This document shows positions 8,413-8,555 of a stretch of 26,059 bases of DNA, in pieces; within the stretch, counting starts at the first letter, position 1; each line of letters starts with the position of its first letter. The position numbers and the translations under genes are program-made. Source of the stretch: a virus; UHGV virus genome UHGV-0143644. One strand, written 5' to 3'. The notes below the pieces were generated by a model that saw only the letters and a list, made by a program, of their open reading frames with translations, was not told where the DNA came from and searched no databases.

Positions 8413-8555
8413 ATATCACCTTAAATAGTGGATTGCGGTAGTAAAGATTGTGCCTGTCTTTTAACCACATCAGGCTCGGTGGTTCTCGTGTACCCCTACA
8501 GCGAGAAATCGGATAAACTCTATTCACCCCTACAGAGAGCAAAAGAGAAACGCCG

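What the first reader, a model, noticed from the sequence alone, without database searches (positions are those of the whole stretch)
8491..8555. Direct repeats CACCCCTACAG(A/C)GAG upstream of sieB
Two copies at 8493 and 8527, 34 bp apart, lie just before the sieB start codon. They may be regulator-binding sites or promoter elements controlling the exclusion gene.
Basis: seen in the sequence. Interest (0 to 1): 0.2.

Follow-up and report, generated by a model that had tools for sequence, protein, structure and literature searches.

The report
Repeat inside sieB promoter and antisense RNA
The two repeats are real and sit in the known control region of the phage exclusion gene sieB, one at the start of its mRNA and the other in a hairpin of the antisense RNA (sas) that silences it; across phages the two copies change together, which suggests they let the two RNAs find each other.

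Summary
The repeat is real: ACCCCTACAGCGAG (8492-8505) and ACCCCTACAGAGAG (8526-8539), 34 bp apart, upstream of a Pfam-confirmed sieB (8556-9137).

The region is 96% identical to phage P22, where this control region has been characterised. By homology to the P22 annotation (BK000583), copy 1 overlaps the -35 region of the sieB promoter. The -10 hexamer (TAAACT, 8514-8519) lies between the copies. The mapped mRNA start is the first base of copy 2 (8526).

Both copies also lie inside the gene for sas, the minus-strand antisense RNA that blocks SieB translation. The window equivalent is 8560 to 8435.

In sas, the complement of copy 1 forms the loop and 5' side of a hairpin whose stem covaries. 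It is therefore complementary to the first 10 nt (13 of 14) of the sieB mRNA.

In 32 sequence variants falling into five motif classes, the motif differs between classes but the two copies match. Copy 2 always begins 5-7 nt after a -10 hexamer.

Best reading (inferred, about 0.5): an IS10-like contact between the antisense loop and the mRNA 5' end, kept in place by a displaced repeat. A protein operator is not supported.

The module occurs in 1,778 of 5,426 complete E. coli genomes, is never annotated there, and has no Rfam family.

The parts
8492..8505 (+). Repeat copy 1, ACCCCTACAGCGAG. On the + strand it spans -35 to -22 of PsieB. On the minus strand its complement (CUCGCUGUAGGGGU) is the loop and 5' side of sas hairpin P2'.
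   Evidence: sequence. (promoter mapping by homology). (sas RNA sequence). (hairpin).
8526..8539 (+). Repeat copy 2, ACCCCTACAGAGAG. This is nt +1 to +14 of the sieB mRNA. The first A corresponds to the P22 RNA start site.
   Evidence: BK000583 'sieB RNA start site' 29727 mapped through alignment A1.
8489..8519 (+). PsieB core promoter by homology to P22: TGTACC (8489-8494), 19-bp spacer, -10 TAAACT (8514-8519).
   Evidence: BK000583 regulatory feature 29690-29720. The sequence is identical in the window. A TAnnnT hexamer lies 5-7 nt before copy 2 in 31 of 32 variants.
8556..9137 (+). sieB (193 aa). An in-frame internal start at M25 (8628) corresponds to P22 esc.
   Evidence: Pfam SieB PF14163, E 2.5e-22. 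esc CDS in BK000583.
8435..8560 (-). Homolog of the P22 sas antisense RNA. The 5' 36 nt are antisense to the sieB leader plus AUGAA. The rest lies upstream of the sieB TSS and is structured (P2' hairpin, P1' element).
   Evidence: P22A-sas, 127 nt, AF217253 11,387-11,513, minus strand, sequence printed in PMC13397905 Table 2. My manual comparison with the window's minus strand as printed finds about 4 differences, one of them a 1-nt deletion.
8483..8507 (-). Hairpin P2': arms TTCTCG 8483-8488 and CGAGAA 8502-8507, loop 8489-8501. In this motif class an upper stem TGTA/TACA leaves a CCCC (+) / GGGG (-) tetraloop.
   Evidence: MFE fold. Stem sequence differs between classes with compensatory changes. 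L041 has the compensatory upper stem TATA/TATA.
8452..8483 (-). Conserved element P1': two interleaved helices, S1 (GCCTG 8452-8456 with CAGGC 8471-8475) and S2 (ACCAC 8464-8468 with GTGGT 8479-8483). This is pseudoknot topology and forms the 3' domain of sas.
   Evidence: Near-invariant across more than 120 IMG/VR contigs. S1 changes to GCCCGG/CCGGGC in Rac. Single changes in L070, L074 and Rac variants give G.U only on the minus strand. In Yersinia S2 is CCACC/GGTGG.
9154..9465 (-). N antiterminator (P22 gene 24 type). It shows that early leftward (pL) transcription runs antisense through sieB and the repeats.
   Evidence: Pfam N_peptide PF25694, E 5e-41. Repressor gene at 10934-11641, minus strand.

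Best explanation
The two repeats are the two halves of an RNA-RNA recognition device in the sieB/sas exclusion switch.

What is shown or follows from close homology:
- The window carries the P22-type sieB promoter.
- The sieB mRNA starts at the first base of copy 2, so its first 10-14 nt are ACCCCUACAG(AGAG).
- The opposite strand of 8435-8560 encodes the sas antisense RNA. In P22 this RNA shuts off SieB translation but spares the internally initiated Esc.
- The 5' 36 nt of sas are directly antisense to the sieB leader.
- The remaining ~90 nt lie upstream of the mRNA start. They fold into hairpin P2' and a conserved pseudoknot-like 3' element.

What is inferred:
- Because copy 1 repeats copy 2, the GGGG loop and the 5' side of P2' (5'-CUCGCUGUAGGGGU-3') are complementary to the 5' end of the sieB mRNA (10 of 10, 13 of 14).
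- I propose that pairing nucleates between the C-rich mRNA 5' end and this G-rich loop, then spreads down the 5' side of the hairpin. This is how IS10 RNA-IN pairs with RNA-OUT. It would speed or stabilise sas binding and block the SieB ribosome-binding site.
- In related 'type 2' cassettes the promoter lies about 34 bp further upstream. There the predicted mRNA start falls inside the hairpin loop, so the loop is directly antisense to the 5' end.
- In 'type 1' cassettes, including this window, the promoter has moved one unit downstream. The loop motif is duplicated at the new +1. Selection then keeps the two copies matched.
For: 1. Position. The P22 record BK000583 annotates the sieB promoter at 29690-29720, the RNA start at 29727 and the ATG at 29758. 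The window is identical across the promoter and both repeats (alignment A1).

2. Antisense RNA. Small-RNA sequencing of P22-infected Salmonella gives sas as a 127-nt minus-strand RNA. Its printed sequence is the reverse complement of the module from sieB ATG+5 through both repeats and P1 (PMC13397905).

3. Covariation of the two copies.
- Among 83 unique variants downstream of the conserved P1 block, 32 have a direct repeat of 8-13 nt with spacing 32-35.
- Five motif classes are seen: ACCCCTACAG, TCCCCAACAACAA, TTCCACAGTCAA, CCCCAATGCAA and CCCCCACAA. The copies match within a genome.
- The longest shared block within a genome averages 10.6 nt. Across classes it averages 5.4 nt, and against shuffled sequence 5.0 nt.
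- Identity is a sharp block of 10-16 nt with flanks at random level, so this is not a recent duplication.

4. Copy 2 sits at +1 everywhere. A TAnnnT hexamer ends 5-7 nt before the shared block in 31 of 32 variants.

5. Copy 1 sits in a real hairpin.
- The P2 stem differs between classes through compensatory changes: TTCTCG/CGAGAA, ATCCT/AGGAT, TTTCCTT/AAGGAAA, TACTGG/CCAGTA and others.
- On alignment A3, 84% of helix cells pair, 3 of 6 pairs change on both sides, and 0 of 500 shuffles reach the observed covariation score.

6. Type 2 geometry. 37 of the 83 variants have TGG + TAYNNT directly after P1. In all 37, the predicted +1 falls at loop nucleotide 1-6.

7. Conservation in divergent sieB loci. 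SieB subfamilies that are 16-27% identical to the window protein (lambda, Rac, L060, L032) keep the motif. So do 52-55% identical SieB genes in Yersinia and Phytobacter. In Phytobacter the S2 helix of P1 (ACCAC/GTGGT) is missing, yet both copies are 14 of 14 identical.

8. The first 9 nt of the window's sieB mRNA are unpaired in the predicted fold.
Against: - No experiment shows that the loop contacts the mRNA. sas already carries a perfect 36-nt linear complement of the leader, so the loop may be redundant.
- In this motif class the hairpin is predicted to close to a GGGG tetraloop. One variant (L041) keeps the upper stem by a compensatory change, and copy 2 does not follow.
- A few variants carry A.C mismatches between the loop and copy 2 (L116, L036).
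- Predicted accessibility of the loop copy (0.43 unpaired) is barely higher than that of the linear copy (0.36).
- The window's single-sequence fold is no more stable than shuffled sequence (z = -0.47).
- Type 2 start sites are predicted, not mapped. A published K-12 dataset lists a + strand TSS 228 nt upstream of e14 ymfI and none at the predicted site.
- The original sas papers could not be read. The published sas ends (105 nt versus 127 nt) and its promoter therefore remain uncertain.
Confidence: 0.5

Rival explanations
1. The repeats are DNA operators. A phage or host regulator binds both copies, which flank the -10 hexamer, and represses or activates PsieB.
For: The copies bracket the -10 at -35..-22 and +1..+14. 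That is a classic position for repression by occlusion. The spacing is held at 32-35 bp in all classes.
Against: The motif differs between classes while the flanking genes vary freely. The cargo genes are unrelated and the left neighbours differ. No co-varying DNA-binding protein therefore travels with the 85-bp module. An operator model does not explain why copy 1 lies in a hairpin with compensatory stem changes. It also does not explain why copy 2 always starts at +1. A spacing of 34 bp is about 3.2 helical turns, so the sites are not on exactly the same face. I know of no reported protein regulator of PsieB.
Confidence: 0.1
2. The repeats are core promoter architecture, or a relic of promoter duplication. 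Copy 1 would be part of a poor -35 or upstream element and copy 2 the initial transcribed sequence. Their similarity would have no function of its own.
For: Type 1 cassettes look like type 2 cassettes with one extra unit (motif plus -10) inserted. In classes B and C, the 3' flank of copy 2 (the Shine-Dalgarno sequence AAGGA) resembles the 3' arm of P2.
Against: Identity is confined to 10-16 nt, with flanks at random level. The two copies stay matched in each of five diverged classes. Both points indicate selection for identity rather than decay of an old duplication. RNA polymerase has no known need for the same sequence at -30 and +1.
Confidence: 0.15
3. The repeats act only within the minus-strand RNA. 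The two G-rich copies (CUGUAGGGGU) in sas or in the pL transcript would be twin binding sites for a chaperone or nuclease (Hfq, ProQ or an RNase). Alternatively they would pair with a third RNA rather than with the sieB 5' end.
For: Both copies are present in the sequenced sas RNA. Hfq-associated sRNAs (KilS, DicF) and STnc100 lie immediately downstream on the same strand in related prophages.
Against: A host protein would not require class-specific motif changes. No other complement of the motif exists in the 26-kb window. Type 2 cassettes have only one copy.
Confidence: 0.1
4. Chance similarity in an intergenic region.
For: Only two copies, with a short 10-nt exact core.
Against: 0 of 100 shuffles give two matches. 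P(shared block of 8 nt or more) is 1.4% in shuffled controls. The repeat is conserved in Salmonella, Escherichia, Klebsiella, Yersinia and Phytobacter elements, with covariation.
Confidence: 0.02

Closest known systems
Phage P22 sieB promoter (PsieB), sas antisense RNA and Esc (Ranade and Poteete 1993, J Bacteriol 175:4712 and Genes Dev 7:1498; both cited from memory, papers not readable here)
   Same: The window is 96% identical over 8330-8700. It has the same -10 hexamer, the same start nucleotide, the same sieB gene with the internal Esc start, and the same minus-strand RNA sequence. It is the ortholog in an HK140-type phage.
   Different: Neither the annotation nor the papers I could read mention the direct repeat, the hairpin-loop complementarity or the wider family. 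Those parts are my inference.
IS10 RNA-OUT / RNA-IN antisense pairing (Kittle et al. 1989; from memory)
   Same: A stable antisense hairpin whose loop is complementary to the extreme 5' end of the target mRNA. Pairing would spread down the 5' side of the stem and cover the ribosome-binding site.
   Different: In IS10 the loop is directly antisense to the mRNA 5' end. Here (type 1) the hairpin is encoded upstream of the mRNA start, and complementarity exists only because the motif is repeated. Type 2 relatives would have the IS10 geometry, but their start sites are predicted only.
Phage P1/P7 c4 antisense RNA with repeated target sites a1b1 and a2b2 (from memory)
   Same: Short repeated motifs match an antisense RNA's loops. 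They covary between related phages and so define specificity classes.
   Different: c4 and its targets lie on the same transcript, and c4 is processed from it. Rfam's C4 family does not match this region.
P22 sar / ant and lambda OOP / cII antisense RNAs
   Same: Small phage antisense RNAs overlapping the 5' or 3' end of a target gene and used as secondary switches.
   Different: These are fully cis-antisense. They have no displaced repeat and no conserved portable module with variable cargo.

Membership tests
P22-type sieB promoter (PsieB) | Sequence homology to the mapped P22 promoter, -10 hexamer and RNA start nucleotide | tested here: met
   BK000583 promoter 29690-29720 and start 29727. 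The window is identical from 8489 to 8535.
P22-type sieB promoter (PsieB) | Drives a sieB gene immediately downstream | tested here: met
   ORF 8556-9137, Pfam SieB PF14163, E 2.5e-22.
P22-type sieB promoter (PsieB) | Transcription actually starts at A8526 in this phage | not testable with these tools
   Needs 5' end mapping. Only P22 was mapped.
sas antisense RNA | Minus-strand RNA overlapping the sieB ribosome-binding site and start codon, with sequence matching the published RNA | tested here: met
   Window minus strand 8560-8435 (printed) compared by hand with the 127-nt P22A-sas sequence: about 4 differences.
sas antisense RNA | Target gene has an internal in-frame start (Esc) outside the antisense overlap | tested here: met
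   ATG at 8628 = M25, in frame, as for P22 esc.
sas antisense RNA | RNA is made on infection or induction and switches translation from SieB to Esc | not testable with these tools
   Experimental. Known only for P22, and cited from memory of the 1993 paper.
Loop / 5'-end antisense pairing (IS10 RNA-OUT type) | Antisense RNA carries a stable stem-loop | tested here: met
   P2' is predicted in the window. The stem covaries.
Loop / 5'-end antisense pairing (IS10 RNA-OUT type) | Loop and 5' side of the stem are complementary to the extreme 5' end of the target mRNA | tested here: met
   10 of 10 and 13 of 14 complementarity to mRNA +1..+14. Copy 2 starts 5-7 nt after the -10 in 31 of 32 variants.
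Loop / 5'-end antisense pairing (IS10 RNA-OUT type) | The loop is the direct cis-antisense of the mRNA 5' end | tested here: not met
   In the window the hairpin is encoded at -43..-19, upstream of the mRNA start. Complementarity comes from the repeat. It is predicted to be met in type 2 relatives.
Loop / 5'-end antisense pairing (IS10 RNA-OUT type) | Pairing nucleates at the loop | not testable with these tools
   Needs binding kinetics with loop mutants. The accessibility prediction is inconclusive.
Operator made of direct repeats | A cognate DNA-binding protein linked to, or co-varying with, the motif | tested here: inconclusive
   No candidate protein is encoded in the module. The cargo and flanking genes are unrelated between classes. 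Host factors cannot be excluded.
Any Rfam RNA family (C4, IsrK, DicF, STnc100 and others) | Covariance-model match over 8435-8560 | tested here: not met
   cmscan of window 7800-9800 at E up to 10 returns no meaningful hit over the module. The only overlap is a SOX2OT hit at E 4.6.

The most novel reading that the evidence does not exclude
The 85-bp block holding the repeats is a portable, unannotated 'moron switch' found in about a third of E. coli genomes, including K-12 Rac (sieB) and e14 (ymfI).

One strand carries the promoter for a prophage-expressed cargo gene of almost any kind. The other strand encodes a sas-like antisense RNA (hairpin plus 3' pseudoknot), made when early leftward transcription is derepressed. 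That RNA silences the cargo by pairing its hairpin loop with the cargo mRNA's 5' end.

Class-specific loop motifs would act as specificity determinants. The direct repeat in type 1 cassettes would be the trace of a promoter relocation that had to preserve this contact.
Probability: 0.35. Interest if true: 0.65.

Novelty: new member of a known kind. Interest (0 to 1): 0.45.

Why it matters
SieB is an abortive-infection type of exclusion protein. The phage must switch it off during its own lytic growth.

The P22 sas/Esc switch has so far looked like a single case. The comparison here suggests three broader points:
- The same promoter/antisense module controls many unrelated prophage accessory genes.
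- The module is present in about a third of complete E. coli genomes without any annotation.
- The direct repeat is the recognition code between the antisense RNA and its target.

If this is confirmed, it gives a simple rule for predicting which prophage accessory genes are silenced on induction. It also adds a new antisense RNA family to databases and describes a way of keeping an antisense loop contact after a promoter has moved. For the finding as submitted, the practical result is more modest: the repeats lie in an already characterised control region and are not a new operator.

Tried and rejected
- **Rfam.** cmscan at E up to 10 over window 7800-9800 gave no family for the module, and none of C4, IsrK or similar. 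At gathering threshold on nine related loci, only neighbouring DicF, STnc100, sok and tRNA were found.
- **Simple scans.** The promoter/terminator scan did not pick up PsieB, whose -35 is poor, and showed no terminator at the element.
- **nut/put-like antitermination site.** Rejected. There is only one copy per locus and none near pR. The resemblance of GCCTG(T)CTTTTAACCAC to boxA lies on the + strand, which is not transcribed upstream of PsieB in P22.
- **DnaA box, CRP, LexA and CII (TTGC-N6-TTGC) sites.** Checked by eye. No convincing match.
- **Shine-Dalgarno-like function of the G-rich minus-strand motif.** Rejected. No start codon follows, and other classes are not SD-like.
- **Strand assignment from G.U versus A.C counts in P2.** Inconclusive: 53 versus 59. 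Variants of S1 do favour the minus strand.
- **Accessibility prediction for the two copies in sas.** Inconclusive.
- **Literature search by sequence strings.** Found nothing relevant.
- **Original Ranade and Poteete papers.** Not held.
- **K-12 TSS data for Rac sieB and e14 ymfI.** The Cappable-seq supplement is truncated before 1.2 Mb. Conway 2014 has no held supplement. Kim 2012 lists only a TSS 228 nt upstream of ymfI.
- **Searches for more SieB loci.** The search for related loci with a five-member SieB alignment failed because the alignment is too divergent. The single-protein genome scan gave only 3 loci. The Rac SieB scan gave 80 near-identical loci.

Full report
**1. The observation**

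The window is a lambdoid phage and is 100% identical to HK140 over 8330-8700. The gene order around the finding is:
- bet, gam, kil, cIII, a DUF2528 gene, ral and an orf28-like ORF on the minus strand;
- a 193-aa ORF at 8556-9137 on the plus strand;
- a P22-type N gene (9154-9465, Pfam N_peptide, E 5e-41);
- a 299-aa ORF of unknown function;
- an S24/HTH repressor, also on the minus strand.

The plus-strand ORF is SieB (PF14163, E 2.5e-22).

The repeat is present as ACCCCTACAGCGAG at 8492-8505 and ACCCCTACAGAGAG at 8526-8539, with a spacing of 34. The leading C belongs only to copy 2. In 100 dinucleotide-preserving shuffles, none gave two matches.

**2. Where the repeats sit relative to known features**

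The region is 96% identical to P22. The curated P22 record BK000583 annotates three features:
- a sieB promoter at 29690-29720 (TGTACC, 19 bp, TAAACT);
- a 'sieB RNA start site' at 29727;
- the sieB ATG at 29758, with esc as an internal start 72 nt further on.

Transferred through the alignment, these map to the window as follows:
- -35 at 8489-8494;
- -10 at 8514-8519;
- +1 at A8526;
- Esc start at 8628.

Copy 1 therefore covers -35 to -22, and copy 2 covers exactly +1 to +14 of the mRNA.

Lambda keeps both 10-nt cores. Homology between lambda and the P22-type sequence ends immediately after copy 2.

**3. The opposite strand is the sas antisense RNA**

A 2026 small-RNA sequencing study of P22 infection (PMC13397905) lists 'P22A-sas'. 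It is 127 nt, on the minus strand, at AF217253 11,387-11,513, and the paper prints its sequence.

That sequence is the reverse complement of the whole block. It runs from sieB ATG+5 through the leader, copy 2, the -10, copy 1 and a further conserved segment. I compared the printed sequence by hand with the window's minus strand. The window equivalent is 8560 to 8435, with about four differences, one of them a 1-nt deletion.

Only the 5' 36 nt of sas overlap the sieB mRNA. The other ~90 nt lie upstream of the mRNA start.

From memory of Ranade and Poteete (Genes Dev 1993): sas is made by superinfecting P22. It blocks SieB synthesis but lets Esc be made, which protects the phage from its own exclusion system. 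I could not read the original papers.

**4. A conserved module much larger than the repeat**

Some phages (HK446, 606R2, a Klebsiella phage) share only window 8451-8535 with this phage. In those phages the block lies upstream of unrelated plus-strand genes.

I scanned IMG/VR for the most conserved part, CTTTTNACCACNTCAGGCNNGGTGG (window 8458-8482). The block, which I call P1, contains two interleaved helices:
- S1: GCCTG with CAGGC;
- S2: ACCAC with GTGGT.

Evidence that S1 pairs, and that it does so in the minus-strand RNA:
- E. coli K-12 Rac, which has the same layout upstream of its sieB, changes S1 to GCCCGG/CCGGGC. This is a compensatory change.
- Single changes in L070, L074 and seven Rac-type contigs give G.U pairs on the minus strand but A.C mismatches on the plus strand.

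After P1 comes a hairpin, P2. Its stem sequence differs from class to class through compensatory changes. On the type 1 alignment, 84% of cells pair and 3 of 6 pairs change on both sides. None of 500 shuffles reach the observed covariation score. The S2 positions were fixed by my search pattern, so they are uninformative.

**5. Two architectures**

*Type 1* covers 32 unique variants and includes the window, lambda, P22 and Rac. Its order is:
- P1;
- P2, with the motif in its loop (copy 1);
- a TAnnnT hexamer;
- the same motif again (copy 2);
- a Shine-Dalgarno sequence and ATG.

*Type 2* covers 37 variants and includes K-12 e14 ymfI.
- The hexamer TAYNNT follows GGTGG directly, giving an extended -10 (TGgTATnnT).
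- A TTNACC hexamer lies 16 bp upstream.
- Then come P2 and the Shine-Dalgarno sequence plus ATG.
- There is no second copy.
- The position 7 nt after the hexamer falls at loop nucleotide 1-6 in all 37 variants.

In both types, therefore, the mapped or predicted mRNA 5' end carries the loop motif.

**6. The two copies covary**

Five motif classes occur: ACCCCTACAG, TCCCCAACAACAA, TTCCACAGTCAA, CCCCAATGCAA and CCCCCACAA. Within every genome, copy 1 and copy 2 match over 8-13 nt at a spacing of 32-35.

The mean longest shared block is 10.6 nt within a genome, 5.4 nt across classes and 5.0 nt against shuffled sequence. Type 1 was defined by a shared block of at least 8 nt, which inflates the first figure. 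Even so, 32 of 83 variants pass a threshold that 1.4% of shuffles pass.

Identity between the two units is a sharp block of 10-16 nt, with flanks at random level. This argues for selection on identity rather than a recent duplication.

A TAnnnT hexamer ends 5-7 nt before the shared block in 31 of 32 variants. The exception, L036, is an artefact of where the longest block fell.

The motif is retained in front of SieB proteins that are only 16-27% identical to the window protein. It is also retained in Yersinia pekkanenii and Phytobacter loci with 52-55% identical SieB. In Phytobacter the S2 helix of P1 is missing, but both copies are 14 of 14 identical.

**7. Mechanism proposed**

In sas, the complement of copy 1 (5'-CUCGCUGUAGGGGU-3') forms the loop and 5' side of hairpin P2'. 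The sieB mRNA begins ACCCCUACAGAGAG, which is complementary to it at 10 of 10 core positions and 13 of 14 overall.

The predicted fold of the window's sas closes P2' to a GGGG tetraloop above a UGUA/UACA upper stem. The first 9 nt of the mRNA are predicted to be unpaired.

A G-rich loop facing a C-rich mRNA 5' end, with complementarity running down the 5' side of the stem, is the geometry established for IS10 RNA-OUT and RNA-IN (from memory: Kittle et al. 1989).
- Type 2 cassettes would have this geometry by direct antisense overlap.
- In type 1 the promoter lies about 34 bp further downstream. The contact is preserved only because the motif is repeated at the new +1. This would explain the covariation.

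The logic of the switch:
- With pL repressed in the lysogen, the cargo gene is expressed.
- With pL active, or from a possible minus-strand promoter TGc-CACCAT at 8575-8567 (my inference only), sas is made and the cargo is silenced.

**8. Weak points**

- The loop contact is inferred, not shown.
- sas also has a 36-nt linear complement of the leader, which could suffice on its own.
- L041 keeps the upper stem by a compensatory change that copy 2 does not follow. L116 and L036 carry A.C mismatches between the loop and copy 2.
- Accessibility predictions do not discriminate between the copies: 0.43 versus 0.36 unpaired.
- The single-sequence fold is not unusually stable (z = -0.47).
- Type 2 start sites are predicted. 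The one K-12 dataset I could read lists a plus-strand TSS 228 nt upstream of ymfI instead. Plus-strand transcripts through P1 and P2 may therefore exist, in which case P2 could also act as a hairpin that sequesters the Shine-Dalgarno sequence.

**9. Comparison with what is known, and verdict**

The element in the window is the ortholog of the characterised P22 PsieB/sas control region, so the locus itself is known.

I could not find the following described anywhere:
- the direct repeat and its covariation;
- the hairpin-loop complementarity;
- the pseudoknot-like 3' element;
- the size of the family.

On the last point, the module matches 1,778 of 5,426 complete E. coli genomes and no feature is ever annotated under the match. 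Its cargo genes are diverse, and it has no Rfam family.

The interpretation as a control element of sieB is partly right, but the operator reading is not supported. Interest is moderate: the repeat is not a new regulator site, but it points to an antisense module that is probably general and unannotated.

Noticed in passing
window 8452-8484 (and L128 4566-4602): A near-invariant 33-bp block upstream of the repeats holds two interleaved helices: GCCTG/CAGGC and ACCAC/GTGGT. That is H-type pseudoknot topology. In the minus-strand RNA it is followed by an A-rich stretch (AAAAGA). Rac has a compensatory GCCCGG/CCGGGC version. Its role is unknown; it could affect 3' end stability or processing of sas.
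   Followed up: partly
window 8445-8545; E. coli genomes; L129 2500-2580: The module matches 1,778 of 5,426 complete E. coli genomes (988 over at least 80% of its length). No feature is ever annotated under it. K-12 carries it twice: Rac (sieB, type 1) and e14 (ymfI, type 2).
   Followed up: partly
loci L005-L127: The genes driven by the module are very diverse. They include three or more SieB subfamilies, 150-190-aa coiled-coil proteins ending in CxxC...CxxC zinc ribbons, 106-aa membrane proteins, and 63-81-aa proteins with no Pfam family. Locus L090 carries two cassettes in tandem, 787 bp apart.
   Followed up: partly
L128 4406-4503; L010 3043-3265; L015 5184-5235; L019 9459-9510: On the minus strand just beyond the module, related prophages carry a small RNA gene: KilS in K-12 Rac, STnc100 (starting 11 nt after P1'), or DicF. 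The window has orf28 and ral there instead.
   Followed up: no
L034, L093, L084, L054: In some phages P1 has no plus-strand gene after it. Instead a strong minus-strand promoter (TTGACC-17-TAGATT), next to the repressor gene, fires directly into P1'. This puts the element at the 5' end of the early leftward transcript.
   Followed up: no
window 8535/8536: The homology break between the lambda-type and P22-type sieB modules falls exactly after the copy 2 core. Other mosaic joints lie at about 8436 and about 8451. The promoter/antisense block behaves as a separate exchangeable unit.
   Followed up: partly
window 8573-8598: An inverted repeat, GCAGGAACTAATG / CATTTTTTCCTGC, lies inside the first codons of sieB, between the sieB and Esc starts. 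It is predicted as a 7-bp hairpin in the mRNA.
   Followed up: no
window 9905-10804 (-): A 299-aa ORF sits between N/pL and the repressor gene, in the position of lambda rexAB. It has no significant Pfam or PADLOC match. It may be an uncharacterised prophage accessory or defence gene.
   Followed up: partly
E. coli K-12 e14, NC_000913.2 position 1,200,492 (+): Kim et al. 2012 (supplement) list a plus-strand TSS 228 nt upstream of ymfI, inside or antisense to ymfH. Transcripts from it would run through P1 and P2 on the plus strand.
   Followed up: no
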